DNA from: an uncultured Elusimicrobia bacterium
Lineage (GTDB): Bacteria > RUG730
Direction of reading: 5' to 3'
Assembly (NCBI GenBank): GCA_900321865.1
Contig: ONXP01000003.1
Span: 1 to 63,916, forward strand
Length of the DNA stretch: 63,916 nt
Below the pieces are notes generated by a model. That model worked only from the letters and a program-made list of their open reading frames with translations. It searched no databases and was not told the origin of the DNA. Both the position numbers and the translations under genes were made by a program. The stretch's first letter is position 1. Each line of letters begins with the position of its first letter. Shown here in pieces: positions 4,091 to 47,570 of the stretch.

Positions 4091-4810
4091 TTATTTAATA
4101 ATATTCTTGTTAATTAGTGCTTGTTGATATATTTTCATTAATTTATAATAATGGCAGCTTTTTTTAATATGAGCTGCAGGATGATTATAACCTATAAACA
4201 ACCTATTTTTTTTACCTATGCAACTACTGTAGTAGAATCCACTATCATTGGGTTTTTTATTTGTTATTGAATTATTACAAATATCATCAATATATAATTT
4301 ATTCGTACAAGAAATAATAACGCCAGGGTCGATTAATTCAATTTCTTTTATTATTTCATATTTATCTTCTGTGACATAAGATTTAATACTTTTATTGTTG
4401 CTTTGTGGTTTACCATTACTCTTTTTTAAATTCATGACTGCAATTTTCTTTAAGATTGAATAATCATTATAATTAGCATCATAAGGGAGAATGTAGTTAT
4501 TTGTTGTTCCTCGTAAACCTCTAACCCATTTAATGATTACTTTCCAAGTTTGATCTTGTTTATAACCTTTAGGGTCTTTAGGGTCTTTAGGGTCTTCTTC
4601 ATTCAACCAATCATTTAAATACCAGTCATTTTCATCATTTTTTCCATATGCTTCTTTTAGCACAAATAAAAATTTTTTATCAAATGTATTTTTTTGCCAA
4701 ATATCTTCATTTACAATCCCATCTTTAATAAAAGGTTTACATCTCGAATGTAATTCTTTTTGTCTCCATTTACTAAATAAAATATCTAATTGTTTTCTAA
4801 TATCACTCAT
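4091..4810 (-). CDS. Hypothetical protein (orphan) with DPKDPKDPK repeat
   Basis: The 239-aa ORF has no motif I recognise. It contains an in-frame 9-bp x3 tandem repeat. It is embedded between R-M gene remnants. Confidence 0.45.
   Translation of the reverse strand: MSDIRKQLDILFSKWRQKELHSRCKPFIKDGIVNEDIWQKNTFDKKFLFVLKEAYGKNDENDWYLNDWLNEEDPKDPKDPKGYKQDQTWKVIIKWVRGLRGTTNNYILPYDANYNDYSILKKIAVMNLKKSNGKPQSNNKSIKSYVTEDKYEIIKEIELIDPGVIISCTNKLYIDDICNNSITNKKPNDSGFYYSSCIGKKNRLFIGYNHPAAHIKKSCHYYKLMKIYQQALINKNIIK
4571..4597. repeat. Perfect/near-perfect 9-bp tandem repeat x3 (agggtcttt agggtcttt agggtcttc) encoding DPKDPKDPK on the minus strand
   Basis: Read directly from the sequence at lines 4561-4600. 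Confidence 0.9.
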
Positions 4811-4952: not shown

Positions 4953-5877
4953 TTAAACTAATGATTTTATAACATTTCTTGGAGTAAAAAATTGTCCCTG
5001 TTCTCCCTTTAAAGCATGTCCTATAAAAGTTTCGAAAGCATCTGCTATAACATCCCTTTCTGTTTCCATTAAATAATAGTTTTGCAGTTCACCAACAACA
5101 TAATTTATAGAATTATCGTCTAAATTTATATTTTCATTTTCTTCAAATAGATCATCATAATTATTTTTTACTTTAACAAAAATATTTTTTATTCTTGTTG
5201 CAACTTGATTAGGAAGTTCATCTATTCCAATTCTAAATTCAAGAATATCATCCATTCTTGTATTTTTTTCATCATATATTTTACAAAAAATTAAATTTAT
5301 TAATTCTTTTGCTAATACTTCATCTCTCGTTACCCCTTTTGTATTTCCTGCTAAATGATTTCTAATTGTTTTAAAAATTGTTTTTAAATTATATGTAATT
5401 TTTAAATCTTTTTTTCTAAATTTTCCAATATCCTCCAACCTTTGCTGATACTTTGGAATATTTGGAATTTCTTCAAATAATATTTCACCATTTTTTTCAT
5501 ATTTTCTTATGAATAATCTTTCCTCACCATTAAACCAAACCCCTAATTTTGCTTTTGATAATCTTAGATAATCTTTTAGCTCGTCTTTACCATCATTTCT
5601 ATTTTTCTTTTTACATTCAACAATAATATACAAATTATCATTATTTTTGTTCTCGCTACTAAAAACTGCTATATCTACTGGATATTCTTTTTTTGTATCA
5701 CTTGACCTTGCTTTTACTCTAAATTGTGGATGAGTTTGAATTAAATTCTTTGGATATTCATAATCTTCTACTAATTGTTTAGAAAATACTTGAACTGCCT
5801 CTATATTCTTCTGGAAGAGCTTTAACTTTTATATTTGATATGTAATCTATGATGAAATTATCTTCATTCTTTTTCAT
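4953..5877 (-). pseudogene. Remnant of an R-M enzyme N-terminus (PD-ExK nuclease-like HSDR_N module plus N6-adenine MTase motif X), truncated before the MTase catalytic core and frameshifted near 5800
   Basis: The ATG at 5877 frame gives MKKNEDNFIIDYISNIKVKALPEEYRGSSSIF*. The adjacent +1 frame is open from 5828 and gives ...YPVDIAVFSSENKNNDNLYIIVECKKK (D...ExK), then ...DVIADAFETFIGHALKGEQGQFFTPRNVIKSLV* (HsdM/MmeI-type motif X). A stop follows immediately. No FxGxG or NPPY motifs follow downstream. Confidence 0.5.
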
Positions 5878-7470: not shown

Positions 7471-8670
7471 ATGAATAAAAAAAATGTCAAAGATATTGAC
7501 TTAAAAAATAAAAAAGTTCTAGTTAGAGTAGATTTTAATGTTCCGTTAGATGAAAATCTAAATATTACCAGCGATAAAAGAATAATTGCAGCTGTTCCTA
7601 CTATAGAATATCTTTTGGAGCAAAATGCAGCTATTATTTTGATGTCTCATTTAGGTAGGCCAAAGGGTGAATTTGTTGAAAAAATGAGTTTAAAGCCTGT
7701 CGCTAAAAGATTGCAAGAAATTTTTAAGGATAGAAAAATAATTATGGCTGACGATTGTATAGGTGAAAAAGTAGAATCTTTAGCAAAAAATCTAAAATCT
7801 GGGGAAATTTTATTACTTGAAAATTTGAGATTTTACAAAGAAGAAGAAAAAAATGATCCTTTTTTTGCTAAAAAATTAGCAAGTCTTGGAGAAATTTTTG
7901 TAGAGGATGCTTTTGGAGCTGTTCACAGAGCTCATGCTTCTACTGAAGGAATAACTAAATATTTACCTAGCATAGCCGGACTTTTGGTTGAAAAAGAATT
8001 AGAATATTTAGGCAATTCTGTAAATAATCCTAAAAGACCTTTTTTAGCTATTTTAGGTGGTGCAAAAGTTTCTGATAAAATAAATGTCATAGAAAATTTG
8101 TTAAAAAAAGTAGATTCTTTAATAATTGGCGGGGCTATGGCATATACTTTTTTGAAGGCAGAAGGGAAAAATATTGGAGCTTCTAGAGTAGAAGAGGATA
8201 AAATAGATTTGGCGAAGGATTTATTGAAAAAGGCTAAAGACAAGGGTATAAAAATTTTACTTCCCTTAGACCATGTATGTGCGAAAGAATTCAAAGAAGA
8301 TGCAGAAAGTTTTATAACTGATGATTGTAATATTACTGATTCTAGTTTAATGGCTTTAGATATTGGACCAAAAACTATAGAAATGTATAGAAATGAAATT
8401 TTGAAATCAAAGACTATTGTGAATAATGGACCTATGGGAGTTTTTGAGTTTAAAAAGTTTGCTACAGGAACAATAGAAGTTTCAAAGGCTCTTGCAGAAG
8501 CTACGAGACTAGGAGCTATAACAGTTGTAGGTGGTGGAGATTCTGCTTCTGCTGTAAAAAAAGCCGGTGTGGACAAGTTAGTTTCTCATGTTTCAACTGG
8601 TGGGGGAGCATCTTTAGAATTTTTAGAAGGGAAAGCGCTTCCTGGAGTAGTTAGTTTATTAGATAAATAA
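7471..8670 (+). CDS. pgk: Phosphoglycerate kinase
   Basis: 399 aa. Motifs include RVDFNVP, MSHLGRPKG, GGGASLE and FLEGKALPGV. Confidence 0.95.
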   Translation: MNKKNVKDIDLKNKKVLVRVDFNVPLDENLNITSDKRIIAAVPTIEYLLEQNAAIILMSHLGRPKGEFVEKMSLKPVAKRLQEIFKDRKIIMADDCIGEKVESLAKNLKSGEILLLENLRFYKEEEKNDPFFAKKLASLGEIFVEDAFGAVHRAHASTEGITKYLPSIAGLLVEKELEYLGNSVNNPKRPFLAILGGAKVSDKINVIENLLKKVDSLIIGGAMAYTFLKAEGKNIGASRVEEDKIDLAKDLLKKAKDKGIKILLPLDHVCAKEFKEDAESFITDDCNITDSSLMALDIGPKTIEMYRNEILKSKTIVNNGPMGVFEFKKFATGTIEVSKALAEATRLGAITVVGGGDSASAVKKAGVDKLVSHVSTGGGASLEFLEGKALPGVVSLLDK

Positions 8671-8754: not shown

Positions 8755-9636
8755 GTGTCTAATATTAGTATGAAAAATTTGTTGGAAGCAGGTGTTCATT
8801 TTGGGCATCAAAAAAAGAAATGGAACCCTAAAATGGCTCCTTTTATATTTGGTGTTAGAAATAACATTCATATAATCGATTTGCAAAAAACGGTAAAATA
8901 TCTAAAAATTGCATATGAATATGTTAGAGATGAGGTTTCTAAGGGTAAAAATATACTTTTTGTAGGGACGAAAAGGCAAGCACAAATGCCTATTTTGGAA
9001 GAAGCAAAAAGATGTGGAATGTTTTATGTAAATAATAGATGGCTTGGCGGACTTTTAACAAACTTTGACACTGTTAGCCAAAGCATAAAAAAATTAAAAG
9101 GGATAGAAGATTTAAAAAATAGTCCAGAGTTTTCTCAATTTACTAAAAAAGAAGTAGCTAGATTGAATAAAACTTATGAAAAATTAAACAAAAATTTAGC
9201 TGGAATAAAAGATATGCCAGGTCTTCCTGATATGCTTTTTATTATAGATATTGAGCAAGAAAAAACAGCATTAAATGAAGCTAAAAAATTAGGTATTCCA
9301 GTTGTTGCAGTCGTTGATACTAATTGTGATCCTAGCGATATAGATGTTATTATCCCTGGGAATGATGATGCTATTAGAGCGGTAAAATTGTTTGCTTCTG
9401 TTATTTCCAATGCAGTTATGGAAGGGAAAGAATTGATGTCAAAAGGAACTATGGATGATTTTGAAACTGAAAATCCTGTAAATTCTATAGAAGGCGAAAA
9501 TGTTTCACAAGAAGCACAAAATTCAGAAAATAGTAATACTGAAAAAAATGAAAGTGAAAATAATATAGAAAATTCAGAAAATGCTGTTACAAAAAATCAA
9601 GAATCTAATCCAAAAGAAGAAAAAAGTTTAGAATAA
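8755..9636 (+). CDS. rpsB: 30S ribosomal protein S2 (GTG start) with acidic N/E/S-rich C-terminal tail
   Basis: [19 protein letters not shown] is present. An AGGAGG RBS lies at 8739-8744. The gene order rpsB-tsf-pyrH-frr is conserved. Confidence 0.95.
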
Positions 9637-9653
9637 AAAGGGGTTTTGATATT

Positions 9654-10250
9654 ATGGCAATAAAAGCTAGTGATGTACAAGTTTTAAGAGAAAGAACAAA
9701 TGTTGGAATGTTAGATTGTAAAAAAGCTTTAGAAGAGGCAAATGGCGATATAGAGAAAGCAATTGTTATTTTGAGAGAGAAAGGAATAGCAAAATCTTTA
9801 AAAAGAGCGGATAAAGAAGCAAAAGAAGGTCAAATTTTTGCATATATTCACAATGGAAATAAATTAGGGGTCTTGTTAGAAGTAAATTGTGAAACAGATT
9901 TTGTTGCTAGAACAGAAGATTTTTCAAATTTAGTTAAAGAATTTGCTATGCAAATAGCTGCAACAGCTCCAATTTGTATAAATAAAGAAGAACTTCCAAA
10001 GGAAAAATTGGAAGAAGAATCAGAAATTGCTAGAAAACAATTAGAAGCAGAAGGTAAACCAAAAAATATTATTGAAAAAATTATTCCTGGAAAGTTAGAA
10101 AAATATTATTCTGAAGTTTGTTTATTGGAGCAGGTTTCAATAAAAGATGGTTCCAAAAAAATGAAAGACATTTTGAATGAATATAGAATGAAAACAGGCG
10201 AAAATTTAGTTATTAGAAGATTTGTTAGATATAAATTAGGGGAAAAATAA
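9654..10250 (+). CDS. tsf: Elongation factor Ts (short form, 198 aa)
   Basis: MAIKASDVQVLRERTNVGMLDCKKALEEANGD matches the UBA-like N-terminus of EF-Ts. Confidence 0.9.
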   Translation: MAIKASDVQVLRERTNVGMLDCKKALEEANGDIEKAIVILREKGIAKSLKRADKEAKEGQIFAYIHNGNKLGVLLEVNCETDFVARTEDFSNLVKEFAMQIAATAPICINKEELPKEKLEEESEIARKQLEAEGKPKNIIEKIIPGKLEKYYSEVCLLEQVSIKDGSKKMKDILNEYRMKTGENLVIRRFVRYKLGEK

Positions 10251-10251
10251 T

Positions 10252-10947
10252 TTGTATAAAAGGATTCTGTTAAAAATTAGTGGAGAATCTTTAATAGGAA
10301 AGCAAAATATAGATTTAAATTCTGACATTATAGAGTTGCTTTCAGAACAAATAAAAAAATTATTGGAACTTTCTGTTGAAATATCCATTGTAATAGGTGG
10401 AGGAAATATTTGGCGGGGAGTTTTTACCAATAAAATAGACAAAGTTACGTCTGATTATATGGGGATGCTGGCTACTATGATTAATTCTATGGCACTTCAA
10501 AAAGCTTTGGAAATGCATGGAATAGTGACCAGAGTCCAGAGTGCTATAGAAATGCAAAAATTAGCAGAGCCTTTTATAATAAGAAGAGCTATAAGGCATT
10601 TAGAAAAACATAGAGTGGTTATATTTGCATGTGGAACAGGGAATCCTTATTTTACTACTGACACGGCTGCAGTTTTAAGGGCGAGCGAAATAGAAGCAGA
10701 TGTAATACTAAAAGCTACAAAAGTTGATTATGTTTATAACGAAGATCCTTTTAAAAACAAAAATGCCATAAAGTATGAAAATTTAACATATAAAGATGCA
10801 TTGGATAAAAATTTAAAAGTTATGGATATGACGGCATTTTCTTTATGTATGGAGAAAAAAATTCCTATTATTATTTTTAATATGAGCAAAAAAGATAATA
10901 TTTATAATGCGGTCTTAGGACATAAAGTAGGGACTTTAATAAAATAA
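10252..10947 (+). CDS. pyrH: UMP kinase (TTG start)
   Basis: KRILLKISGESL, VIGGGNIWRG, and the position after tsf. Confidence 0.9.
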   Translation: MYKRILLKISGESLIGKQNIDLNSDIIELLSEQIKKLLELSVEISIVIGGGNIWRGVFTNKIDKVTSDYMGMLATMINSMALQKALEMHGIVTRVQSAIEMQKLAEPFIIRRAIRHLEKHRVVIFACGTGNPYFTTDTAAVLRASEIEADVILKATKVDYVYNEDPFKNKNAIKYENLTYKDALDKNLKVMDMTAFSLCMEKKIPIIIFNMSKKDNIYNAVLGHKVGTLIK

Positions 10948-10959
10948 TCGGAGTTTTTT

Positions 10960-11517
10960 ATGATAAATGATATAAAAAAAAATTTAAATTCAAAAATAGA
11001 AACAGTTTTATCAAAATTAAAATCTGAGCTTTCTAATATTAGAACAGGAATATTTACAACTTCTATGTTAGATGTGGTAAAGGTCGAAGCTTATGGCAGT
11101 ATTATGCAGATTAGCCAATTAGCTAATGTAGCAATTCCAGAGCCTAGAGTAATGGAAATAAAACCTTGGGATACATCTATTTTATCAAATATTGAAAAAG
11201 CTATTTTAAAGTCTCCTCTTGGGATTACTCCAAATAACGATGGAAAAATGATCAGATTAATTTTGCCTATTATGACGGAAGAAACTAGAAAAGAATTGTC
11301 AAAGTTTGCCTCTAAATTAGAAGAGCAATTTAAAATAGAAATCAGAAATTTAAGGCGTGATATCAATGAAGAATTAAAAGCCTTAGAAAAGGATAAACAA
11401 ATTACAGAAGATGAGCTTTTTAATTCAGAAAAAGAAGTTCAAAATATTATAGATTTATGTAATAAAAAGATAGTAGAAATAGTAGAAACAAAGAAAAAAG
11501 AAATAATGACAGTATAA
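10960..11517 (+). CDS. frr: Ribosome recycling factor
   Basis: 185 aa. LSNIRTGIFTTSMLDVVKVEAYG is typical of RRF. It follows pyrH. Confidence 0.9.
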   Translation: MINDIKKNLNSKIETVLSKLKSELSNIRTGIFTTSMLDVVKVEAYGSIMQISQLANVAIPEPRVMEIKPWDTSILSNIEKAILKSPLGITPNNDGKMIRLILPIMTEETRKELSKFASKLEEQFKIEIRNLRRDINEELKALEKDKQITEDELFNSEKEVQNIIDLCNKKIVEIVETKKKEIMTV

Positions 11518-11520
11518 AAT

Positions 11521-11979
11521 ATGGAAAGTTTTCATAGACCTAGCTGGGATGAATATTTTATTTCTATAACTTTGGAAGTTGCAAAAAGATCTACTTGTCT
11601 CAGAAGACAAGTAGGGGCGATTTTAGTAAAAGATAAAATAATTTTATCAACTGGATATAATGGAGCTGTAAAAGGTTTACCACATTGCAAGGATAGTGGT
11701 TGCCTTAGAGAAAAAAATAATATTGTAAAAGGAACTCATCATGAGCTTTGTTCTGGACTTCATGCTGAGCAGAATGCGATTTTATTTTCCAGTAAAATGG
11801 GTGAAAATTTAGAAGGAGCAACTTTATATTCTACTAATTTTCCGTGTTCTATCTGTGCAAAAATGTTAATCCAAGTTGGCATAAAAAAAATAGTTTATCT
11901 AGAAGATTATCCTGATGATTTGTCTAAAAAATTATTTTCTTACACTGATATTGAAATTATAAAATTTTCGAAACCTTAA
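11521..11979 (+). CDS. dCMP/cytidine deaminase family (ComEB-like deoxycytidylate deaminase)
   Basis: HAEQNAI (zinc His/Glu) and PCSICAKMLIQVGIKKIVY (zinc CxxC) motifs. Confidence 0.8.
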   Translation: MESFHRPSWDEYFISITLEVAKRSTCLRRQVGAILVKDKIILSTGYNGAVKGLPHCKDSGCLREKNNIVKGTHHELCSGLHAEQNAILFSSKMGENLEGATLYSTNFPCSICAKMLIQVGIKKIVYLEDYPDDLSKKLFSYTDIEIIKFSKP

Positions 11980-11982
11980 AGT

Positions 11983-12354
11983 ATGATAGTGGGTCTAGAT
12001 ATAGAATCTATTTCCAACTTTAACTATTTATCATCTCTAGAAAAACAGCAGGATTTTTTATTTTTGTCACCTTTTTTTTTAAATGATGAAATTTTATATT
12101 GTATTCAATTTGACAAACCTAAAAGTTTTGCTATTTTATTTTCTTTAAAAGAATCAATTATTAAGATTTTAAAAAATTACTATTTTTCAATAAGTTTTGT
12201 GGATATTGAAATTTTGAATTTTTATGATAAATTAGAAATCATATTTGCTAAAAATTTAAAAAGATTTAATTCTAAAATACAAGTTTCTTTTGCTTGTGAT
12301 AGATACAATGTTTTATCATTTGCCGTTTTAGAGGAGAAGTCTCTTGAATTATAA
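11983..12354 (+). CDS. acpS: Holo-ACP synthase (4'-phosphopantetheinyl transferase AcpS)
   Basis: MIVGLDIESISNF aligns to MAILGLGTDIVEI. FSLKESIIKIL aligns to FAVKEAAAKAF. VSFACDRYNVLSFAVLE aligns to VTLADERHYACATVIIE. Confidence 0.7.
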   Translation: MIVGLDIESISNFNYLSSLEKQQDFLFLSPFFLNDEILYCIQFDKPKSFAILFSLKESIIKILKNYYFSISFVDIEILNFYDKLEIIFAKNLKRFNSKIQVSFACDRYNVLSFAVLEEKSLEL

Positions 12355-12796
12355 ATATTTAATAGATAAACTTTTGAAACAAAAGCATCCTTTTTTATTT
12401 TTGGACGATATTTTAAAGATAGAAGACAATAAAATTTTGTCTATTTTTTATCTAAATAAAAATGAAAATATTTTAAAAGGGCATTTCGAAAATAATCCTA
12501 TTTTACCTGGTGTTATTATGATAGAGATGATTAGTCAGACAGCACTTTTTTTTATGACTTATAATTTGTATAAGAAAGAGCAAAAAGATATTTTTTACGA
12601 TGCTTTGTTATCAAAAGTGAACTATTTTTCATATAAAAATGCGATTTTTCCAGAGGCTTTGATAAAAATCGATGTAAAAGTTGAAGAAACTTTGTTAGAG
12701 AATTTTTATACAGTTAAAGGGAAAATTTTAGTAGACGATAAAATAAAAGGTCTTGGGGAAGTTACTTTATATTTTAAAGGGAAAGAAAATGAATAG
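12344..12796 (+). CDS. 3-hydroxyacyl-ACP dehydratase, FabZ/FabA hot-dog fold
   Basis: HPFLFLDDIL...GHFENNPILPGVIMIEMISQ carries the catalytic His/Glu signature of FabZ. Confidence 0.75.
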   Translation: MNYKYLIDKLLKQKHPFLFLDDILKIEDNKILSIFYLNKNENILKGHFENNPILPGVIMIEMISQTALFFMTYNLYKKEQKDIFYDALLSKVNYFSYKNAIFPEALIKIDVKVEETLLENFYTVKGKILVDDKIKGLGEVTLYFKGKENE

Positions 12797-13076
12797 AGAA
12801 GAAATTTTAGAAAAAGTGAAAAAAACTATTATATTTGAAGGGCTAAAATTGGAAGATTTGGGTTATACTTTGGCTGATGTGACTGATGATGTAAAGCTTT
12901 TTGGTGAAAATAGTTTGGATTTAAGTTCTGTAGATGTTTTGGAAATTTTGATGCTGATAAAAAAGGAATTTGGGATAGAAATTGACAAAATTGATAGAGA
13001 GGAAGTAGAAAAACATTTCACGTCTCCTAAGGATATCACTGATTATATAATGGCTCATTTACCTAAAAAAAAATAA
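12789..13076 (+). CDS. Acyl carrier protein (divergent, cluster-dedicated)
   Basis: Start set at the internal ATG (12789) after a GGAAAG RBS. The LFGENSLDLSSVDVLEILMLIKKEFGIEI phosphopantetheine-Ser motif is present. Confidence 0.7.
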   Translation: MNREEILEKVKKTIIFEGLKLEDLGYTLADVTDDVKLFGENSLDLSSVDVLEILMLIKKEFGIEIDKIDREEVEKHFTSPKDITDYIMAHLPKKK

Positions 13077-13077
13077 A

Positions 13078-13734
13078 ATGAATTTATTTTTTTTACAAGA
13101 TGCAAATAATTTTTTGGGAATAGAAATAATTAAATATTTTTCTAATGATAATAGAGTTTTTTTACTAGAAAATGTTGGCGAAAAATTTGATAAAAATGTA
13201 ACTATTTTAAAAAATATTGAAAATGTAGTCGATTTTTTTGATAAGGAAAATATTTTTTTGTTTGGATTAAAATTTTTAAATGAATACGATATAGATGATA
13301 TTAGTTATATAGACAATATAATCTTTGATTTAACTCAAAAATATCAATTTTTACAATTTATCTCTAAAAATTTAATAGAAAGATCGTTTAAAGGAGCTTT
13401 TTATTTTTTTACTTTTCATTCTATAAATTTAAACACTTCAAAACTTCCTATAAAGCCCATACATGACAGTGCTATTGAAATATTTGTAAAAACAGTTTCA
13501 AAGGAACTAACTACATTTAATATTTATTCTTATTGTTTGAGGTTAGAATCTATATTTGAAACTATGAATTTTCAGGAAATTAGGGATTTTAGAAAAAAAA
13601 TGAATATTTTTGCTTTTAGAAAAACTCCAACAAAAATTCTAGATATTTTGTCATTTTTAAATGTTTTATTTCATAATAATTTTAAACTGTTGTCGGGTTC
13701 TATTATTAATGTAGGGGACGGGATGGATTTTTAA
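13078..13734 (+). CDS. Degenerate short-chain dehydrogenase/reductase-like protein (lacks glycine-rich NAD motif)
   Basis: C-terminal SGSIINVGDG resembles the SDR G..IxVDGG motif. No GxxxGxG is present. It is embedded in the ACP cluster. Confidence 0.35.
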   Translation: MNLFFLQDANNFLGIEIIKYFSNDNRVFLLENVGEKFDKNVTILKNIENVVDFFDKENIFLFGLKFLNEYDIDDISYIDNIIFDLTQKYQFLQFISKNLIERSFKGAFYFFTFHSINLNTSKLPIKPIHDSAIEIFVKTVSKELTTFNIYSYCLRLESIFETMNFQEIRDFRKKMNIFAFRKTPTKILDILSFLNVLFHNNFKLLSGSIINVGDGMDF

Positions 13735-14498
13735 TGGAATACGAAGATTTTTTTCAAAAAGTGGTTTTAATTACAGGTGGAACGAAAGGAATAGGGAAAG
13801 AAACTGCAAAGACTTTTTTATTAAATGAAGCGAAAGTTTTTATAGTATATTCAAAAGATGAAGAAGCAAAAAATTTATTTTTAGACGAAATTAAAAGCAA
13901 ATTTTCTAAGTTTATAAATAATGTTTTTTTTTACAAGGGAGATGTTTCTGATGTTAATTTCGCAAAATTTGTTTTTGATGAAATAAATAAAAAATTTAAA
14001 AAACTGGATATTTTAATAAATAATGCCGGAATTAATAGAGATAATTTACTTTTGGAAATGAAATTGGATGAATGGAAAAAGGTTTTAGATGTAAACATAA
14101 AAGGAACATATATTTTTACGATGCTTGCTAAAGATTTATTGATAAAAGGACAAGATCCTAAAATTATAAATATTTCATCTATTTCAGGAGTTTATGGAAA
14201 AGCGGGGCAGGTAAATTATTCAGTTTCCAAGGGCGCAATTATTGGTATGACTAGATATTTTGCAAATAAATATATAAAGCATTTTATCCATGTCAATTCT
14301 GTGGCACCAGGCTTAACTAAGACAGAATTTTCTAAAGATTTAGATAAGGCTAAAGTAGGTGAAATTATAAACTTTGTTTCAATGAAAAAGTTGGGAACAG
14401 CAAGTGAAATAAAAGATGTAATTATGTTTTTGGCTTCTAATAAGTCTAATTATATAAACGGAAAGACGATTTTGGTAGATGGCGGGTTTTTAATATGA
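13734..14498 (+). CDS. fabG: 3-oxoacyl-ACP reductase (SDR)
   Basis: ITGGTKGIGKETAK; NNAGI; YSVSKGAIIGMTR (Y-x3-K); C-terminal TILVDGGF. Confidence 0.85.
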   Translation: MEYEDFFQKVVLITGGTKGIGKETAKTFLLNEAKVFIVYSKDEEAKNLFLDEIKSKFSKFINNVFFYKGDVSDVNFAKFVFDEINKKFKKLDILINNAGINRDNLLLEMKLDEWKKVLDVNIKGTYIFTMLAKDLLIKGQDPKIINISSISGVYGKAGQVNYSVSKGAIIGMTRYFANKYIKHFIHVNSVAPGLTKTEFSKDLDKAKVGEIINFVSMKKLGTASEIKDVIMFLASNKSNYINGKTILVDGGFLI

Positions 14499-16732
14499 CA
14501 GAAAAAGTAGTAGTAATAGGGATGGGAATAATTTCTGCCATAGGGAAAAATAGAGAAGAAACCATAGAAAATATTAAATCTTTACAAGATGGACTAAAGA
14601 AAAAAGACGAATTTTTTGGAGTTGATATAAAAAGTATTGGCTCTAGGTATGCAGCTGAAGTTGATTCTAAAAATTTTACTACCGATTCTAAATTTTCTAA
14701 ATTTGATAAAAATTATTTATTGTCAAAAATTTCTTTAAATGAAGCTATAGAAAATTCAAAACTTGACATAAAAAATTTTAATTTGGAAAAAGTTGGGATA
14801 TTTTTTGGCTCATGCAATGGGAATCTTTTATCTTTTGAAAAAATTTATCAAGATTTTGATTCTCCGCACGAATATACTTATAATTCAATCACATCATTTA
14901 ATGGAGCAGATGTCGTTATAGATTATTATAGGGATAATCAGAAAATAGATATTTCTGGGCCTAAATATCTGTTTTCTAATGCTTGCAGTTCTTCTAATAT
15001 GGCATTAGCTTTTGCAAAGGATAAAATAAAAAATTCTGATATAGACCTAGCATTTGTTGGCGGAAGTGATACTTTAACTGAAATTACATTGTTAGGGTTT
15101 GATAGTTTTAAAAGCATATCACAGGAAAAAGCCTCTAGTTTTAGTCCAAATTTTGGATTAAATTTAGGAGATGGAGCTGGCTGGATGATTTTAACTACTG
15201 AAAGCCTAGCCAAAAAAAATAATTTAAAAATTTTTGCAGAAATAAAAGAAAGTGCAAGTTATCTAAATGGTAATAAAAATATAGTTTCGCCTGATATAGA
15301 TGGAAAAACATTATCACTTTGTATGGATGAAGCTATTAAAAAATCTTCTTTAGATAAAAAAGATATAAAGGTTATTTGTGCTCATGGCACAGGAACAGAG
15401 CTTAATAATATTTCTGAAAGCAAAGCTATAAAAAAGTCATTTTTAGACGAAAATTTTAAAGATATTTTAGTGACTTCTATAAAGCCTTATTTAGGGCATA
15501 CCTTAGGGGCATCTGGTTTAATGCAAAATATTATTATGATAGATTGTATGAATTTTGGGATAATTCCTCCTATTCTTCATTTCTCAGAAAATAATTCTAG
15601 TCTAGACGATAAAAATATTGCACTAAATGAATTAGTGCATAGAGATTACGATAATTTTTTATCAAATTCTTCTGCATTTGGTGGAAATGATATTTCTATA
15701 GTTATTTCAAAGTATAAAGAAGAAAAATTTAATCAAAATATTTGTATAAAAACTGAAGAAAATAAAATTTTTATTAATGATATTTCTATGCATACACCTT
15801 TATTTTCTAATTTTATGGAATTTTTTGATGCTATTTCTCAAAAAAAATTTTTAGGAACAGAAAAAAAATATATTACATATGATAATTTTTTGAAGAATGT
15901 ATTTATAAAAGAAGATATAAGTATGCGAAAATATGCTAAAAATCCTGATTATGTAAAGTTTAGTATAAAATTGATAAAAGATTTGATAAAAAATACAAAT
16001 ATTGATAGGAATATTGGTTTATTTTTTGCTAATTATCAAAATATATGTAGTTTTATAGAAGATTTTTATTTGGAAGCATTAAAAACAGAAAAAAAATATT
16101 CTTCTGCAATAAAATTTCAAAATTCGACATTTAATGCTACCTTAGGGCATATATCGAATATTTTTGGAATAAAAGGATTTGGGAATACATTTTTTGGGGC
16201 ATATGGAGCTTCGCTTTCTGCTTTAGATTATGGAATATATGCTTTGGAAAAAAATTTTTTAGGTAAAAGTCTAATTTTTTCTGTTGATTCAAAAAGTGAA
16301 TATTATAATAGATCAATACACGAAAAATATTATGATGGAGAATTAGCATCAGAGGGTGCAGCTGGAATACTTATATCGAAAGAAAAAAGTGAAAATTTGT
16401 TAGCTGAGATAAAAGGTTTTAGCACGAATAGTTTTTATTTTTTAGACGAAAATTTAGCAAAAAAGACATTTAATGATTGCATAAATATTACTTTAGAAAA
16501 GGCAAATATAAAACTAAAAGATGTAGATTGTCATATAACTAAAAGCTTTTTTATGAAAAATGAAAAAGCTTTTACTTCTACAAAATACACTGGACTTTTG
16601 GAAACATCATCGCCACTTATAGATATAATGATGGCTATTTATTTGATTCAAAATGAAAATTTAAAAAACATTTTGGTATCATTGCAATCTTTGCAAGGCA
16701 CCAATCATAGCTTTTTAGTGAGAAAAGTTTAA
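14495..16732 (+). CDS. Beta-ketoacyl-ACP synthase fused to a C-terminal active-site-less KS-like (chain-length-factor-like) domain
   Basis: The N-terminal half has the KS catalytic triad context: CSSSNMALAFA (Cys), CAHGTGTELN (His) and YLGHTLGASG (His). The C-terminal ~340 aa is KS-like (GFGNTFFGAYGASLSALDYG) without the Cys. Total length is 745 aa. Confidence 0.8.
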   Translation: MTEKVVVIGMGIISAIGKNREETIENIKSLQDGLKKKDEFFGVDIKSIGSRYAAEVDSKNFTTDSKFSKFDKNYLLSKISLNEAIENSKLDIKNFNLEKVGIFFGSCNGNLLSFEKIYQDFDSPHEYTYNSITSFNGADVVIDYYRDNQKIDISGPKYLFSNACSSSNMALAFAKDKIKNSDIDLAFVGGSDTLTEITLLGFDSFKSISQEKASSFSPNFGLNLGDGAGWMILTTESLAKKNNLKIFAEIKESASYLNGNKNIVSPDIDGKTLSLCMDEAIKKSSLDKKDIKVICAHGTGTELNNISESKAIKKSFLDENFKDILVTSIKPYLGHTLGASGLMQNIIMIDCMNFGIIPPILHFSENNSSLDDKNIALNELVHRDYDNFLSNSSAFGGNDISIVISKYKEEKFNQNICIKTEENKIFINDISMHTPLFSNFMEFFDAISQKKFLGTEKKYITYDNFLKNVFIKEDISMRKYAKNPDYVKFSIKLIKDLIKNTNIDRNIGLFFANYQNICSFIEDFYLEALKTEKKYSSAIKFQNSTFNATLGHISNIFGIKGFGNTFFGAYGASLSALDYGIYALEKNFLGKSLIFSVDSKSEYYNRSIHEKYYDGELASEGAAGILISKEKSENLLAEIKGFSTNSFYFLDENLAKKTFNDCINITLEKANIKLKDVDCHITKSFFMKNEKAFTSTKYTGLLETSSPLIDIMMAIYLIQNENLKNILVSLQSLQGTNHSFLVRKV

Positions 16733-17187
16733 TTATTACTTAATTTTTTTACATCAGATTTAGCTTTTTTGAATATTTTTTTGTATTTATTTTTGTAAAT
16801 ATTCAAAACTACTAAGTTAGAAAAAAACATTATCATAAAATAATATATCATAGGTCTAAGAGACATATCACTTCCTGATTTCCTAAAAACATAACCAGAT
16901 AAAACCCATAATATAAAAAATATAGATGTTACAATTCTTTCTTCATTCATCTTTTTTAATGTTTGAATATTTGGTCTTTTTGAGACAAAAACATTCATAA
17001 TATGTTTCCCTATACGAATGTGTAAATACCAATATGCTATATGTAATACAAAAAAGAACGAAAAAAGATATCTATTGAAAAGAAATACATATAAAATTAA
17101 ATTAAAAAAATTAAAAATAACAAAAGATATAAAAATAGCTGTATAATTTCCAATATGAGGAACTCTTTTGGCCACAAATCCCTCCAA
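16729..17187 (-). CDS. Hypothetical integral membrane protein
   Basis: The 152-aa product has multiple hydrophobic helices. It is convergent with the KS gene, with overlapping stops. Confidence 0.45.
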   Translation of the reverse strand: MEGFVAKRVPHIGNYTAIFISFVIFNFFNLILYVFLFNRYLFSFFFVLHIAYWYLHIRIGKHIMNVFVSKRPNIQTLKKMNEERIVTSIFFILWVLSGYVFRKSGSDMSLRPMIYYFMIMFFSNLVVLNIYKNKYKKIFKKAKSDVKKLSNN

Positions 17188-21042: not shown

Positions 21043-21150
21043 AAAAATATTTTAATAAATTTTTGAATTAGTGGTTTTTGTTTAAAAATTTGTTTTGTGA
21101 ATATTTTAAATTTAAATTTTGATAGAATTTTTATTGATTATAAGGGAATT

Positions 21151-21930
21151 ATGTGTACAAAGTTAGATTTGTCTGTCGTAATAATTACAAAAAATGAAGA
21201 GAAAAATATTGTTAAATGTCTTGAAAAAATAAAAAATATCGCAAATGAAATCATTATAATAGACAGTTTTAGCACTGATAAAACTAAAGAAATAGTAAAT
21301 AATATAAAAGCAAATATTATTTTTAAAGAAGTTTTGTGGCAAGGTTATGGAAAAACTAAAAATTTTGGTATAAATTTGGCAAAATCGAAATGGATTCTTA
21401 GTCTGGATGCTGATGAAGTGTTGACAGATGAATTGATAAAAGAAATAGAAATTGTTATAAATAAAGAATCTGATATTTTTGGTTATTATGTGCCTAGAAC
21501 TTTGTTTTTTTGCAATAAAGCACTGCACTATGGAGGGACATATCCAGATTATCAGCTTCGTCTTTTCAAAAATGGAGCAGGACTTTTTAATAATTCTGAT
21601 GTCCACGAAAAATTGATTTTAAATGGTAAAAAAGGTTATCTAAAAAATAGCATGTTTCATTATAGCTATCATTCTATTTTTGATTATTTTGAGAGATTTA
21701 ACCTTTATACTACTTTGGATGCAGAAAAAATGTATAATTCAGGCAAAAAAATTAATATTTTAAAGCTTTTTTCTTTTAATTTTAGGCTTTTTAATAAACT
21801 GATAATAAAAAGAGGAATTTTAGATGGATTTTATGGAATTTTTTATCATTTTTTTTCAAGTATGTATCCTATAGTCAAGTATGCCAAACTTTTCGAAATC
21901 TACCAAAATAAAAAATCTAAAAATTTTTAA
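21151..21930 (+). CDS. Family 2 glycosyltransferase (LPS-core type, WaaE/KdtX-like)
   Basis: LSVVIITKNEEKNI, IIIDSFSTDKT and SLDADEVL (DxD) motifs. Start set at the internal ATG 21151. Confidence 0.7.
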   Translation: MCTKLDLSVVIITKNEEKNIVKCLEKIKNIANEIIIIDSFSTDKTKEIVNNIKANIIFKEVLWQGYGKTKNFGINLAKSKWILSLDADEVLTDELIKEIEIVINKESDIFGYYVPRTLFFCNKALHYGGTYPDYQLRLFKNGAGLFNNSDVHEKLILNGKKGYLKNSMFHYSYHSIFDYFERFNLYTTLDAEKMYNSGKKINILKLFSFNFRLFNKLIIKRGILDGFYGIFYHFFSSMYPIVKYAKLFEIYQNKKSKNF

Positions 21931-28278: not shown

Positions 28279-28307
28279 ATTAAATATTTTAAAATTTTTA
28301 TAAAAAT

Positions 28308-45517: not shown

Positions 45518-46495
45518 ATGGTTAAAGCAAAAATAACTTCTCTAGGGCATTATGTTCCAGAAAAAATTTTAACAAATTTTGATTTAGAAAAAATGGTAGA
45601 GACTAGCGATGAATGGATAGTAAAAAGAACTGGAATAAAAGAAAGGCATATTGCGGAAAAAAATGAATATGCATCTACTATGGGTGTAAAAGCAGCGAAA
45701 TTGGCTATAGAAAGAGCTGGGATTTCTCCATTAGATATAGATATTATAATATGTGCTACAATTACCGGAGATTATGTGACTCCTTCGACGGCTTGTATAA
45801 TTCAGTCAGAAATAGGGGCGGAAAAAGCTTTTAGTTTTGATATTTCGGTTGCTTGTTCTGGGTTTTTGTATGCTATTAGTATTGCAGAAAAATTTATTTT
45901 AGAGGATCCTAGTAAAAAAATTTTAGTAGTGGCTGTTGAAAAATTATCCAGTATAACGAATTGGCAAGATAGATCTACATGTGTATTATTTGGCGATGGA
46001 GCAGGAGCTGCGATATTAGAATCTGATGAAAATAGTGGTATTTGTAAAACATTCTTAAAAAGTGATGGAAGGCTTTATGATTATTTGATGGTCGCTTTGG
46101 GGGGATCTCATGAGCCTCTTGATATAAATAATATTAATAGCCCCTTAAGATATCTTACAATGCAAGGCAATGCAGTTTTTAAACATGCAGTGAATAAAAT
46201 GCTAGAATCTATAGAAAAAGTGATGGAATTATCTTTTTGGAAAAAAGAAGATTTAAAAATGGTTTTTACACATCAGGCAAATATCAGAATAATAGAATCT
46301 ATTAGAAAAAGTTTAGATCTAGAAGAAGAAAAAGTTTTTATAAATTTAGAAAAATATGGCAATACCAGTGCCGCAACTCTTCCTATAGCCTTGGACGAAG
46401 CCGTTCAGAAAGGTCTTTTGAAAAGAGGCGATAAAATAATTTTATCCAGTTTTGGAGGCGGATTTACCTGGGGTGCAATTAGTATTGTTTGGTAA
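45518..46495 (+). CDS. fabH: 3-oxoacyl-ACP synthase III
   Basis: 325 aa. Active-site ACSGFLYA (Cys) and NTSAATLPIALDEA; C-terminal GGGFTWGA. Confidence 0.9.
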   Translation: MVKAKITSLGHYVPEKILTNFDLEKMVETSDEWIVKRTGIKERHIAEKNEYASTMGVKAAKLAIERAGISPLDIDIIICATITGDYVTPSTACIIQSEIGAEKAFSFDISVACSGFLYAISIAEKFILEDPSKKILVVAVEKLSSITNWQDRSTCVLFGDGAGAAILESDENSGICKTFLKSDGRLYDYLMVALGGSHEPLDINNINSPLRYLTMQGNAVFKHAVNKMLESIEKVMELSFWKKEDLKMVFTHQANIRIIESIRKSLDLEEEKVFINLEKYGNTSAATLPIALDEAVQKGLLKRGDKIILSSFGGGFTWGAISIVW

Positions 46496-46496
46496 A

Positions 46497-47558: not shown

Positions 47559-47570
47559 ATTTTAAAGGTT

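What the first reader, a model, noticed from the sequence alone, without database searches (positions are those of the whole stretch)
11983..16732. Self-contained ACP lipid/polyketide-like cluster (AcpS, FabZ-like, ACP, dead-SDR, FabG, KS-KSbeta fusion) fused into the rpsB-tsf-pyrH-frr operon
Six same-strand genes run from 8755 with 0-4 nt overlaps and no room for promoters or terminators. The cluster carries its own phosphopantetheinyl transferase and a divergent ACP. It also has a hot-dog dehydratase, an SDR lacking the NAD-binding glycines, a bona fide KR and a 745-aa condensing enzyme whose C-terminal half is a Cys-less KS. The canonical fabH lies elsewhere (45518), and no fabD, fabF or fabI is seen here. 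The content resembles dedicated systems such as the rhizobial AcpXL very-long-chain lipid-A acyl pathway, or aryl-polyene/type II PKS KS-CLF pairs. Here it is compacted and housed with ribosomal and translation genes. The product could be an envelope lipid specific to this lineage.
Basis: partly seen in the sequence, partly recalled or inferred. Interest (0 to 1): 0.65.

Follow-up and report, generated by a model that had tools for sequence, protein, structure and literature searches.

The report
Minimal polyene-type lipid synthase in ribosomal operon
A low-GC Elusimicrobiota bacterium carries, directly behind its rpsB-tsf-pyrH-frr genes, a six-gene fatty-acid-like assembly line that is not the ordinary fatty acid machinery; it has a fused ketosynthase/chain-length-factor enzyme, a previously unnamed dead reductase subunit and no enoyl reductase, and it probably makes a special unsaturated envelope lipid.

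Summary
Six tightly packed + strand genes (11983-16732) encode AcpS, a FabZ-like dehydratase, a divergent ACP, a degenerate SDR ("X"), an intact ketoreductase, and a 745-aa ketosynthase. The ketosynthase C-terminal half is a KS fold without Cys or either His. These genes continue the rpsB-tsf-pyrH-frr-dCMP-deaminase array, with gaps of -11 to +17 nt.

This is a dedicated type II set, not canonical FAS II. All six proteins miss their NCBIfam cut-offs, whereas FabH, Tsf, PyrH, Frr and BioW from the same window pass. ACP, KS and KR are 34, 25 and 33% identical to E. coli AcpP, FabF and FabG. True orthologues measured 55-76, 39-56 and 44-59%.

The closest known systems are cyl (granadaene) and aryl-polyene-type reducing type II synthases, not AcpXL. 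A Bacillus thuringiensis plasmid cyl-like operon has the same fused KS::CLF. X-KR-KS::CLF triads also occur in larger export-equipped clusters elsewhere.

The cluster is not self-contained. It has no malonyl transferase, enoyl reductase, thioesterase, acyltransferase or exporter.

My best reading (0.5) is an ER-less module making a polyenoyl or unsaturated acyl-ACP, with X as a non-catalytic partner of KR. I could not test whether a canonical fabF/acpP set exists elsewhere in the genome. I rate it a new variant of a known kind, interest about 0.5.

The parts
8755..11979 (+). Upstream co-directional genes: rpsB (8755-9636), tsf (9654-10250), pyrH (10252-10947), frr (10960-11517), dCMP deaminase/ComEB-like (11521-11979). 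They are contiguous with the cluster.
   Evidence: ORFs. NCBIfam equivalogs pass for tsf, pyrH and frr. dCMP_cyt_deam_1 E=1.2e-25. Gaps are 1-17 nt and contain no terminator-like site. The order is the same in L001 and, from dcd onward, in L008.
11983..12354 (+). AcpS-type 4'-phosphopantetheinyl transferase (123 aa).
   Evidence: Pfam ACPS 31.9 bits, above the cut-off of 25. TIGR00556 scores 37 bits, below its cut-off of 45. It is conserved at this position in L001, L002 and L008. dN/dS is 0.33 against L001.
12344..12796 (+). FabZ/CylZ/ApeI-like hot-dog 3-hydroxyacyl-ACP dehydratase (150 aa, TTG start).
   Evidence: Pfam FabA E=2.9e-14, with a weak ApeI-like hit. NCBIfam FabZ scores about 70 bits, below the cut-offs of 113-155. 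The catalytic His and Glu align with EcFabZ and Bt CylZ.
12789..13076 (+). Dedicated acyl carrier protein (95 aa from the ATG at 12789; the longest ORF starts at the TTG at 12753).
   Evidence: The best NCBIfam hit is PRK09184, a phosphopantetheine-binding protein (46 bits, cut-off 70). acpP TIGR00517 scores only 24 bits against a cut-off of 70. Identity to EcAcpP is 34%, against 55-76% for true AcpP. The attachment Ser aligns.
13078..13734 (+). X: a non-catalytic SDR-fold protein (218 aa). It belongs to an unnamed family that sat next to a KR gene in every locus examined.
   Evidence: No Pfam or NCBIfam hit. The X-only profile hits FabG structures at E about 7e-10. The AF2 model has pLDDT 82.7 and Foldseek matches SDRs at TM about 0.7. 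The cofactor and catalytic motifs are lost. The family is rare: 19 of 1.84 billion representatives. dN/dS is 0.22.
13734..14498 (+). FabG/CylG-like 3-ketoacyl-ACP reductase (254 aa) with intact motifs.
   Evidence: adh_short_C2 E=1.1e-51 and KR domain E=3e-20. TIGR01830 scores 224 bits, below its cut-off of 298. Identity to EcFabG is 33%, against 44-59% for orthologues.
14495..15730 (+). KS half of the fused KS::CLF protein (residues 1 to about 412): an active condensing domain.
   Evidence: Pfam ketoacyl-synt plus Ketoacyl-synt_C. Cys, His, Lys and His are all present. The best PDB chain is 9s5h_B. Identity is 25% to EcFabF (98 bits) and 32% to the Bt CylI N half (193 bits). It falls outside the FabF clade in the NJ tree.
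15731..16732 (+). CLF-like half of the fused protein (residues about 413-745): a KS fold without a catalytic triad.
   Evidence: The family profile hits KS structures at 1e-45, best 9s5h_C, a second, distinct KS chain of the same PDB entry. The Cys position is Tyr and both His are absent. The Lys aligned to FabF Lys335 is kept (TSTKYT), as in L001 and L002 but not in L016 or L005. It matches the C half of Bt CylI (E=1e-11) but not EcFabF. dN/dS is 0.19.
16729..17187 (-). Convergent small membrane ORF (152 aa) whose stop overlaps the KS::CLF stop by 4 nt. It is a conserved neighbour; a role in the pathway is unproven.
   Evidence: No family hit. It sits at the same position in L001 (81% id), L002 (34% id) and L008, and is absent in L016.
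45518..46495 (+). Canonical FabH, unlinked to the cluster. It is a possible primer supplier and evidence that ordinary FAS II initiation exists.
   Evidence: TIGR00747 scores 413 bits (cut-off 292) and PRK09352 scores 429 bits (cut-off 249). Identity to EcFabH is 44.6%. The downstream neighbour is RNase H-like.

Best explanation
This is a stripped-down, enoyl-reductase-less type II synthase. It builds a specialised acyl chain on its own carrier protein, most likely conjugated-unsaturated (polyenoyl) or otherwise partly reduced. It is co-transcribed with the rpsB-tsf-pyrH-frr-dcd genes.

Proposed steps:
1. AcpS converts the dedicated apo-ACP to holo-ACP. Inferred from the Pfam match and the conserved attachment Ser.
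2. A malonyl transferase encoded elsewhere loads malonate. Inferred; none is in the cluster.
3. The single-chain KS::CLF folds as an intramolecular pseudo-heterodimer. The N half condenses; its catalytic residues are shown. The triad-less C half shapes the acyl tunnel and sets chain length. This is inferred by analogy with KS/CLF pairs.
4. KR reduces the 3-keto group, with the catalytically dead SDR X as a structural partner. Inferred from strict X-KR adjacency and from conservation of the SDR dimer-interface helix.
5. The hot-dog dehydratase forms the 2-enoyl thioester; its catalytic His and Glu are shown. With no enoyl reductase, repeated cycles would leave conjugated double bonds, as in cyl/granadaene and aryl-polyene synthesis. 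This step is inferred.
6. Release or transfer of the chain is done by something outside the cluster and is unknown.

The module is the biosynthetic core of a wider, uncharacterised family of X-KR-KS::CLF clusters. In other bacteria those clusters also carry thioesterase, ABC/MacB-type exporters, LolA-like proteins and amino-acid-conjugating enzymes.
For: Not canonical FAS II:
- All six proteins miss their NCBIfam cut-offs, while FabH, Tsf, PyrH, Frr and BioW of the same window pass.
- ACP, KS and KR are 34, 25 and 33% identical to E. coli AcpP, FabF and FabG. AcpP, FabF and FabG found next to 80 unrelated metagenomic fabH genes are 55-76, 39-56 and 44-59% identical.
- The KS N half lies outside a tight FabF clade and sits with other fused KSs, though that grouping has only 50% bootstrap support.

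Fused KS::CLF:
- The N half has Cys, His, Lys and His; the C half lacks the Cys and both His.
- The two halves best match two different KS chains of one PDB entry, 9s5h_B and 9s5h_C.

Relatives sit in ER-less secondary-lipid clusters:
- B. thuringiensis pBTHD521-6 has ABC, TE, MCAT, FabG, ACP, FabZ, GNAT, aminomethyltransferase, an 818-aa two-domain KS, and rfbACBD. This matches the published cyl operon gene set (PMC6985545, PMC4315905).
- L005 has X-KR-KS::CLF-4HBT-KR-ACP-GCV_T-FeeM-KS-KS-DH-ABC-FtsX.
- L019 has ACP, a type-III-like KS, X-KR-KS::CLF-4HBT, ABC-MacB, a LolA-like protein and DH.
- GCA_015689235.1 has accDABC-KS::CLF-ACP-FAD-KR-X-FAD-DH-TE.
- None of these carries a recognisable enoyl-ACP reductase.
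- cyl-like operons are reported to carry their own AcpS-type synthase (PMC6985545). The AcpS here therefore does not by itself imply housekeeping.

X:
- It is an SDR fold with the cofactor and catalytic motifs lost.
- It is adjacent to KR in all 9 loci examined.

The module is functional and conserved:
- dN/dS is 0.14-0.33 for all parts, including X and the CLF half.
- The same order is kept in relatives down to 46% KS identity, and the ACP-X-KR-KS::CLF core down to 35%.
Against: - No product is known for any X-containing cluster.
- The absence of an enoyl reductase in the cluster does not prove that none acts on this ACP, since a housekeeping FabI/K/V could.
- There is no thioesterase, acyltransferase, exporter or amino-acid-conjugating enzyme here, unlike every larger relative. 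The fate of the chain is therefore unexplained.
- The cluster's position in a core operon, its conservation across a deep clade (AspRS 67-90% identical) and its own AcpS would also suit an essential function.
- The Bt CylI N half branches nearer to FabF than to the window KS. Homology with a proven polyene synthase is therefore architectural rather than close.
- The X:KR complex is inferred only from gene adjacency and motif conservation.
Confidence: 0.5

Rival explanations
1. This is the organism's only FAS II elongation machinery. In this low-GC lineage a KS::CLF fusion, a divergent ACP, KR(+X) and a FabZ-like enzyme have replaced FabF, AcpP, FabG and FabZ. They work with the unlinked FabH, and with FabD and an enoyl reductase encoded elsewhere, to make bulk membrane and lipid A acyl chains.
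For: - The cluster lies in a core housekeeping operon and is conserved across a deep clade.
- It carries an AcpS, which is often the sole PPTase of a small genome.
- fabH is isolated rather than in a plsX-fabH-fabD-fabG-acpP-fabF cluster. Of 42 comparison loci of at least 9 kb, 24-26 have that linkage.
- No second fab set appears in the roughly 73 kb of the contig that could be read.
- There are no tailoring or export genes.
- A KS/CLF-like heterodimer was recently reported in a fatty acid pathway of anammox bacteria (bioRxiv 10.64898/2026.05.19.726425).
Against: - ACP, KS and KR identities to the E. coli proteins lie far outside the orthologue ranges, although FabH of the same genome is 44.6% identical to EcFabH.
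- All six proteins fail the NCBIfam cut-offs while neighbouring housekeeping proteins pass.
- dN/dS is 2-4 times that of the adjacent genes.
- An outer-membrane bacterium (BamA and Lgt are present) would be expected to keep a conventional AcpP for LpxA/LpxD/PlsX-type partners. This is inference from established knowledge.
- Homologous X-KR-KS::CLF triads sit in obviously accessory clusters.
Confidence: 0.17
2. This is a dedicated carrier-protein pathway for a saturated or hydroxylated special acyl chain. It would be analogous to rhizobial AcpXL very-long-chain lipid A acylation, would borrow the housekeeping enoyl reductase, and would have its transferase encoded elsewhere.
For: - It has its own ACP, KS, KR and DH, and it lies behind frr. 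In E. coli, envelope lipid genes (cdsA, lpxD-fabZ-lpxA-lpxB) follow frr.
- The organism has outer-membrane biogenesis genes.
- A chain-length-setting CLF half would suit an unusual chain length.
Against: - No LpxXL-like or other acyltransferase lies in or beside the cluster in any of the five Elusimicrobiota-type loci.
- The nearest homologous clusters lack any recognisable enoyl reductase and have polyene-type (cyl-like) content.
- The ACP's best family match is the PRK09184 phosphopantetheine-binding protein subfamily rather than acpP. From memory only, I associate PRK09184 with aryl-polyene-type clusters; this was not tested here.
Confidence: 0.2
3. This is a mini-FAS supplying a cofactor precursor. 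One candidate is the pimelate needed by the BioW-dependent biotin pathway encoded on the same contig. Another is octanoyl-ACP for lipoate.
For: bioW-bioF-bioD-bioA...bioB are present and start from free pimelate, and no bioC/bioH/bioI was seen. A CLF could set a short chain length.
Against: - The cluster is 45 kb from the bio genes and is never linked to them in relatives.
- The known pimeloyl and octanoyl routes need full reduction, including an enoyl reductase. This rests on established knowledge.
- Homologues lie in exported-lipid clusters.
Confidence: 0.04

Closest known systems
cyl operon of Streptococcus agalactiae and cyl-like operons (granadaene, an ornithine rhamno-polyene)
   Same: - It is an ER-less type II set of ACP (AcpC), KR (CylG), FabZ-like DH (CylZ), a PPTase (CylK or an AcpS-type synthase) and the CylI condensing enzyme.
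- In the cyl-like operon of B. thuringiensis pBTHD521-6, the CylI-position protein is the same two-domain KS::CLF fusion (818 aa). It aligns with the window protein over 91% of its length at 28.6% identity.
- The gene set and the polyene logic come from PMC6985545 and PMC4315905.
   Different: - The window has no CylE-type N-acyltransferase, CylF aminomethyltransferase, glycosyltransferase with rhamnose genes, CylA/B exporter or CylD malonyl transferase.
- The Bt operon has no X.
- The window KS is not phylogenetically close to Bt CylI.
- I could not obtain the GBS CylI sequence itself.
Uncharacterised X-KR-KS::CLF clusters in other bacteria (L005, a 5.7-Mb high-GC genome; L019, GCA_903813465.1; GCA_015689235.1)
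   Same: They share the homologous triad of pseudo-SDR X, KR and fused KS::CLF in the same or adjacent order, plus an ACP and an ApeI/FabZ-like DH. No enoyl reductase is present.
   Different: They also carry a 4HBT or alpha/beta thioesterase, ABC/MacB exporters, a LolA-like protein, extra KSs, FeeM and GCV_T or CrtI-like flavoproteins, and in one case ACC. The window keeps only the core and adds AcpS. Their products are unknown.
Aryl polyene (APE) clusters: ApeO/ApeC KS-CLF, ApeQ KR, ApeI/ApeP DH, ApeE/F ACPs
   Same: - They use an ER-less reducing type II logic with a KS plus a triad-less CLF.
- The window DH has weak ApeI-like matches, and relatives have ApeI/ApeP-like matches.
- The ACP and KS have below-cut-off matches to PRK09184 and PRK09185. 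I link these models to APE-type clusters from memory only; this was not tested.
   Different: In APE clusters KS and CLF are separate proteins. The window has no aryl-starter adenylating enzyme, second KS, LPLAT, glycosyltransferase, MMPL exporter or LolA-like gene. These APE features are stated from my own knowledge and the abstracts of PMC8358021 and PMC8253772. No APE sequence was compared directly.
Anammox amxFabF2/amxFabFmut KS/CLF-like heterodimer (ladderane lipid cluster)
   Same: It pairs a FabF-like active KS with a triad-less homologue, working with a dedicated ACP and FabZ in a lipid pathway (bioRxiv 10.64898/2026.05.19.726425). The two window halves best match two different chains of one PDB entry, 9s5h_B and 9s5h_C.
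   Different: It has two separate proteins rather than a fusion. I could not verify that 9s5h is that structure; the depositor names say only '3-oxoacyl-ACP synthase'. There is no X, and the organism and cluster content differ.
Human mitochondrial ketoacyl reductase HSD17B8/CBR4 (PDB 4cqm) and other alpha2beta2 SDR heterotetramers
   Same: It is a precedent for a KR built from two different SDR subunits. 4cqm is among the Foldseek matches of the X model, and petunia benzaldehyde synthase is another example (PMC13418739).
   Different: This is an analogy only. X has lost the cofactor and catalytic motifs entirely and about 37 residues, and no complex was modelled or measured here.
Rhizobial AcpXL very-long-chain fatty acid / lipid A pathway
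   Same: It uses a dedicated ACP with its own FabZ- and FabF-like enzymes for an envelope lipid.
   Different: No LpxXL acyltransferase is present here. The window has a fused KS::CLF rather than two FabF-like genes, and its relatives point to ER-less clusters. The AcpXL cluster composition is from my own knowledge and no sequence was compared.

Membership tests
Canonical bacterial FAS II elongation set (AcpP, FabF/B, FabG, FabZ) | Each protein reaches the curated equivalog score of its family. | tested here: not met
   Scores against cut-offs: fabF 209 vs 494; FabG 224 vs 298; FabZ about 70 vs 113-155; acpP 24 vs 70. FabH, Tsf, PyrH, Frr and BioW of the same window pass.
Canonical bacterial FAS II elongation set (AcpP, FabF/B, FabG, FabZ) | Orthologue-level identity to E. 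coli AcpP, FabF and FabG. | tested here: not met
   Window values are 34, 25 and 33%. Orthologue ranges are 55-76, 39-56 and 44-59% in 80 metagenome fabH loci. The KS lies outside the FabF clade.
Canonical bacterial FAS II elongation set (AcpP, FabF/B, FabG, FabZ) | It is the only such set in the genome. | not testable with these tools
   Only about 73 kb of an 82.8-kb metagenome contig is reachable, and the genome collection scans are exhausted.
KS/CLF condensing pair of type II PKS-like systems | An active KS (Cys-His-His) paired with a homologous partner lacking the catalytic Cys. | tested here: met
   The N half has Cys, His, Lys and His. The C half has Tyr at the Cys position and no His, in one polypeptide. 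The C-half profile hits KS folds at 1e-45.
KS/CLF condensing pair of type II PKS-like systems | A Gln at the CLF active-site position, plus cyclase/aromatase partners, as in aromatic type II PKS. | tested here: not met
   The position is Tyr in the window and Phe, Gly, Ala, Ile or Asn (none Gln) in the relatives aligned. No cyclase or aromatase genes are in the window.
cyl (granadaene) operon | A lipid-building core of ACP, KR (CylG), FabZ-like DH (CylZ), a two-domain CylI-type KS and a PPTase. | tested here: met
   All are present. Domain-by-domain homology to the Bt cyl-like operon proteins: KS::CLF E=3e-69, KR 6e-51, DH 2e-15, ACP 8e-8.
cyl (granadaene) operon | CylE N-acyltransferase and CylF aminomethyltransferase, listed as a conserved core in PMC6985545. 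| tested here: not met
   No GNAT/FeeM or GCV_T domain occurs in the cluster or its flanks, nor in L001, L002 or L016.
cyl (granadaene) operon | An ABC exporter (CylA/B) and a glycosyltransferase. | tested here: not met
   There is no ABC transporter near the cluster. A GT2 gene lies 4.4 kb downstream, beyond aspS (21097-21930), with no evidence of linkage.
Aryl polyene (APE) cluster | An aryl-starter activating enzyme, a second KS (ApeR), an LPLAT, and LolA-like/MMPL export genes. | tested here: not met
   No such domains occur among the window ORFs annotated. The feature list is from my own knowledge.
AcpXL very-long-chain lipid A pathway | An LpxXL-type acyltransferase and a reductase for full saturation next to acpXL/fabZXL/fabFXL. 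| tested here: not met
   There is no acyltransferase or enoyl reductase domain in or beside the cluster. The feature list is from my own knowledge.
[quoted passage not shown] | A Rossmann-type SDR fold. | tested here: met
   The AF2 model has pLDDT 82.7. Foldseek top hits are all SDR/FabG at TM 0.63-0.71 and probability 1.00. The X-only profile hits FabG at about 7e-10.
[quoted passage not shown] | The TGxxxGxG cofactor motif, the NNAG motif and the catalytic Ser-Tyr-Lys. | tested here: not met
   The cofactor motif reads QDANNFLG, the NNAG region is deleted, Tyr is replaced by Ile and Lys by Asp. The same losses occur across the family.
AcpS-type phosphopantetheinyl transferase | An ACPS domain above the Pfam gathering score, with the Mg-binding Asp/Glu. 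| tested here: met
   PF01648 scores 31.9 bits against 25. GLDIE and KES..K are seen in the translation. Activity was not tested.

The most novel reading that the evidence does not exclude
In low-GC Elusimicrobiaceae-like bacteria, this KS::CLF / pseudo-SDR module may not be an accessory pathway at all. It could be the cell's constitutive, possibly sole, acyl-chain elongation system, hard-wired to ribosome and translation-factor expression. That would be a housekeeping fatty acid synthase built around a chain-length-factor fusion and an obligate catalytically dead reductase subunit.
Probability: 0.17. Interest if true: 0.8.

Novelty: new variant of a known kind. Interest (0 to 1): 0.5.

Why it matters
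If the reading is right, a clade of gut and environmental Elusimicrobiota constitutively makes a polyene-type or otherwise unusual lipid from the smallest known version of a cyl/aryl-polyene-like assembly line. This version has six genes and no tailoring or export genes. That would make it a convenient minimal system for studying how KS::CLF enzymes set chain length.

The work also defines an unannotated protein family, X. It is an SDR fold with no cofactor or catalytic motifs, and it sat next to a ketoreductase in every locus examined. X marks a whole group of uncharacterised lipid gene clusters in several kinds of bacteria. It also predicts a heteromeric ketoreductase in bacterial type II systems.

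If the cluster instead turns out to be the only FAS II of these organisms, it would overturn the assumption that FabF and AcpP are universal in bacteria that make their own lipids.

Tried and rejected
- A single-protein scan of GTDB genomes with the KS found nothing. A 14-sequence CLF alignment was too divergent to derive search patterns. A 5-sequence alignment found two Elusimicrobiota MAGs and five distant hits.
- A word-based homologue search with X alone gave only 2 hits. The first AF2 model of X, from a 2-sequence alignment, was useless (pLDDT 42).
- Scanning JGI metagenomes with the window FabH was meant to find close relatives whose fabH neighbourhood might show canonical fab genes. It returned only relatives at about 50% identity. 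I reused them as a calibration set.
- Cluster-member look-ups gave no organism names.
- The apparent frameshifts in the L008 KR and KS genes looked like pseudogenisation but are masked runs of N.
- The AFDB fold library was unavailable.
- Literature searches for Elusimicrobia fatty acid synthesis and for fused KS-CLF gave nothing specific to this system.
- I considered and rejected aromatic type II PKS (no Gln in the CLF half, no cyclases), AcpXL (no LpxXL) and a biotin/pimelate role (unlinked, needs full reduction).
- I could not confirm that PDB 9s5h is the anammox heterodimer. I also could not obtain GBS CylI itself.

Full report
**What is there.** The window is the first 63.9 kb of an 82.8-kb metagenome contig (ERZ1029114:k87_16434203) with about 25% GC. 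On the + strand lie pgk (7471-8670), then an 84-nt gap, then eleven genes with almost no spacing. These are rpsB, tsf, pyrH, frr, a dCMP deaminase, and the six genes of the finding. The gaps are +17, +1, +12, +3, +3, -11, -8, +1, -1 and -4 nt. No terminator-like hairpin lies in any of these junctions. Promoter-like matches are uninformative at this AT content. The array ends where a convergent 152-aa membrane ORF overlaps the last stop codon.

**The six genes** (domain searches):
- AcpS scores above the Pfam threshold.
- The FabZ-like hot-dog dehydratase has its catalytic His and Glu in place.
- The ACP is 95 aa, and its real start is most likely the ATG at 12789, as in relative L001. Its best family match is the PRK09184 phosphopantetheine-binding protein subfamily rather than acpP.
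- The 218-aa protein I call X has no family hit at all.
- The ketoreductase has every SDR motif.
- The 745-aa condensing enzyme completes the set.

**The condensing enzyme is a KS::CLF fusion.** Aligned with E. coli FabF, the N half keeps Cys163, His303, Lys335 and His340. The C half has Tyr at the Cys position and lacks both histidines. The same pattern holds in every relative examined. The C half is undetectable with single-sequence searches. A profile of C halves matches ketosynthase structures at E about 1e-45. The N half best matches PDB chain 9s5h_B and the C half best matches 9s5h_C, two different KS-like chains of one entry. The protein therefore looks like a covalently linked KS/chain-length-factor heterodimer.

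**X is a dead SDR.**
- A profile built only from X homologues hits FabG structures over nearly its full length at E about 7e-10.
- With a 41-sequence alignment, AlphaFold gave a confident model (pLDDT 82.7). Its Foldseek matches are all SDRs at TM about 0.7.
- In alignment with the adjacent KR and E. coli FabG, the glycine-rich cofactor motif reads QDANNFLG. About 37 residues including NNAG are missing. The catalytic Tyr is Ile and the Lys is Asp.
- The best conserved stretch of the family, P..PI.DEAIHSF.KSLAKEL, corresponds to the SDR alpha5 helix. That helix forms the dimer interface in FabG-type tetramers, according to established SDR structural knowledge.
- The family is rare. It gave 19 hits among 1.84 billion representatives with a two-sequence profile and 72 hits with a broader profile.
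- In all nine loci I could inspect, X lies next to a KR gene. In one locus (L020) X and KR occur without a nearby KS::CLF.
- From this I infer, without proof, that X is a non-catalytic partner of the reductase. Precedents are heteromeric SDRs such as human mitochondrial ketoacyl reductase (4cqm) and petunia benzaldehyde synthase.

**It is not ordinary FAS II.** Three calibrations agree.
1. All six proteins fall below their NCBIfam cut-offs. FabH, Tsf, PyrH, Frr and BioW of the same window pass theirs. AT-driven divergence is therefore not the reason.
2. FabH is 44.6% identical to E. coli FabH, but the ACP, KS and KR are only 34, 25 and 33% identical to AcpP, FabF and FabG. In 80 metagenomic loci chosen only because they carry a FabH about 50% identical to this one, the neighbouring AcpP, FabF and FabG are 55-76, 39-56 and 44-59% identical to the E. 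coli proteins.
3. In a neighbour-joining tree, the canonical FabFs form one tight clade. The window KS forms a 100%-supported clade with its Elusimicrobiota-type relatives outside it. That clade groups loosely (50% bootstrap) with other fused KSs.

**Who has it.**
- Identical gene order occurs in L001 (KS 77% identical, AspRS 90%), L002 (KS 46%) and L008. L008 is an 'uncultured Elusimicrobiaceae' MAG with AspRS 71% identical. Its apparent gene breaks are masked N runs.
- L009 is an Elusimicrobiota MAG.
- In L016 (GCA_031551405.1, AspRS 67% identical) only ACP-X-KR-KS::CLF is present, placed after pheS. The four-gene core is therefore older than its attachment to the rpsB operon.
- dN/dS between the window and L001 is 0.14-0.33 for the cluster genes, including 0.22 for X and 0.19 for the CLF half. 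The flanking tsf, pyrH, frr, dcd and aspS give 0.02-0.11. The cluster is functional and constrained, but less so than the core genes around it.

**What its relatives do.**
- Fused KS::CLF homologues are widespread. On Bacillus cereus-group megaplasmids the homologue is 818 aa; one record annotates it as 'synthase / Chain length factor'. It sits in an operon of ABC transporter, thioesterase, malonyl transferase, FabG, ACP, FabZ, a large GNAT, aminomethyltransferase, the KS, and rfbACBD. This is the gene set of the streptococcal cyl operon that makes the polyene lipid granadaene. In that pathway KS, KR and DH cycle without an enoyl reductase (PMC6985545, PMC4315905). That literature also notes that cyl-like operons in some phyla carry an AcpS-type synthase in place of CylK.
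- X-containing clusters are larger still.
  - L005 has X-KR-KS::CLF, thioesterase, a second KR, ACP, GCV_T, FeeM, two more KSs, DH, and ABC/FtsX.
  - L019 has ACP, a type-III-like KS, X-KR-KS::CLF, thioesterase, ABC/MacB, a LolA-like protein, and DH.
  - A third cluster has accDABC, KS::CLF, ACP, two CrtI-like flavoproteins, KR, X, DH and thioesterase.
- None of these has a recognisable enoyl-ACP reductase.
- The window cluster is the biosynthetic core of this family with everything else removed and AcpS added.

**Mechanism I think most likely (confidence 0.5).**
1. AcpS activates the dedicated ACP.
2. A malonyl transferase encoded elsewhere loads it.
3. The KS half condenses, while the CLF half shapes the tunnel and sets chain length.
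4. KR, stabilised by X, reduces the keto group and the dehydratase forms the enoyl thioester.
5. With no enoyl reductase dedicated to this ACP, the chain grows as a conjugated or partly reduced acyl-ACP.

The catalytic residues are shown by the data. The order of events, the X:KR complex, the polyene nature of the product and its fate are all inferred. The missing release or transfer step is the weakest point.

**Rivals.**
- Sole housekeeping elongation set (0.17). I could not exclude this, because the rest of the genome is out of reach. The operon position, the presence of AcpS and the isolated fabH favour it. The divergence and dN/dS data argue against it.
- AcpXL-like saturated special chain using a housekeeping reductase (0.2). 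This fits the envelope-gene neighbourhood: in E. coli, frr is followed by cdsA, bamA and lpxD-fabZ-lpxA-lpxB. It lacks the defining acyltransferase.
- Cofactor-precursor role (0.04). The BioW-dependent biotin genes on the same contig suggest it, but nothing else supports it.

**Verdict.** The new elements are the pseudo-SDR family X and the minimal, operon-embedded form in Elusimicrobiota. Interest is about 0.5.

Noticed in passing
window 61490-63384, continuing on the contig beyond the window (L015 9276-16828): A BioW-dependent biotin pathway: bioW-bioF-bioD-bioA, then bamA and panD, then bioB. It starts from free pimelate, and no bioC/bioH/bioI-type pimelate source was seen in the 73 kb read.
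   Followed up: partly
window 27597-33094, - strand: A very low-GC (about 19-20%) block encoding an IceA-like (NlaIII-type) endonuclease, a DNA methylase and a 1262-aa protein with a SIR2-like domain. It looks like a restriction/anti-phage defence islet inserted between murein ligase genes and a flavodoxin gene.
   Followed up: partly
window 47152-47563, + strand: Bacterial RNase P RNA class A (198 bits), directly downstream of the RNase H-like gene that follows fabH. No tRNA genes occur in the whole window.
   Followed up: yes
window 16729-17187, - strand: A 152-aa, apparently four-helix membrane protein with no family match. Its stop overlaps the KS::CLF stop by 4 nt in convergent orientation. 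It is conserved at that spot in L001, L002 and L008 but absent in L016.
   Followed up: partly
window 8755-9636: Ribosomal protein S2 carries a roughly 50-residue acidic, Asn/Glu/Ser-rich C-terminal extension (293 aa). L001 has a similar 289-aa form.
   Followed up: no
window 45518-47168: The canonical fabH stands alone between thrS and an RNase H-like gene, whose longest ORF overlaps the fabH 3' end by 44 nt. In 24-26 of 42 comparison loci, fabH is linked to fabD-fabG-acpP-fabF.
   Followed up: partly
L003/L004 (P0007) and L020: The module can be split. A KS::CLF fusion stands alone beside an FAD monooxygenase-like gene in L003/L004. An X-KR pair stands alone after an EamA transporter in L020. 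Both come from sample ERZ27286505, which suggests the parts can be encoded at separate sites.
   Followed up: no
window 4953-5633 and 4091-4810, - strand: Fragments resembling a type I restriction R/M subunit (HSDR_N, with a weak N6_Mtase hit) lie next to unannotated ORFs. They may be remnants of another restriction system.
   Followed up: no
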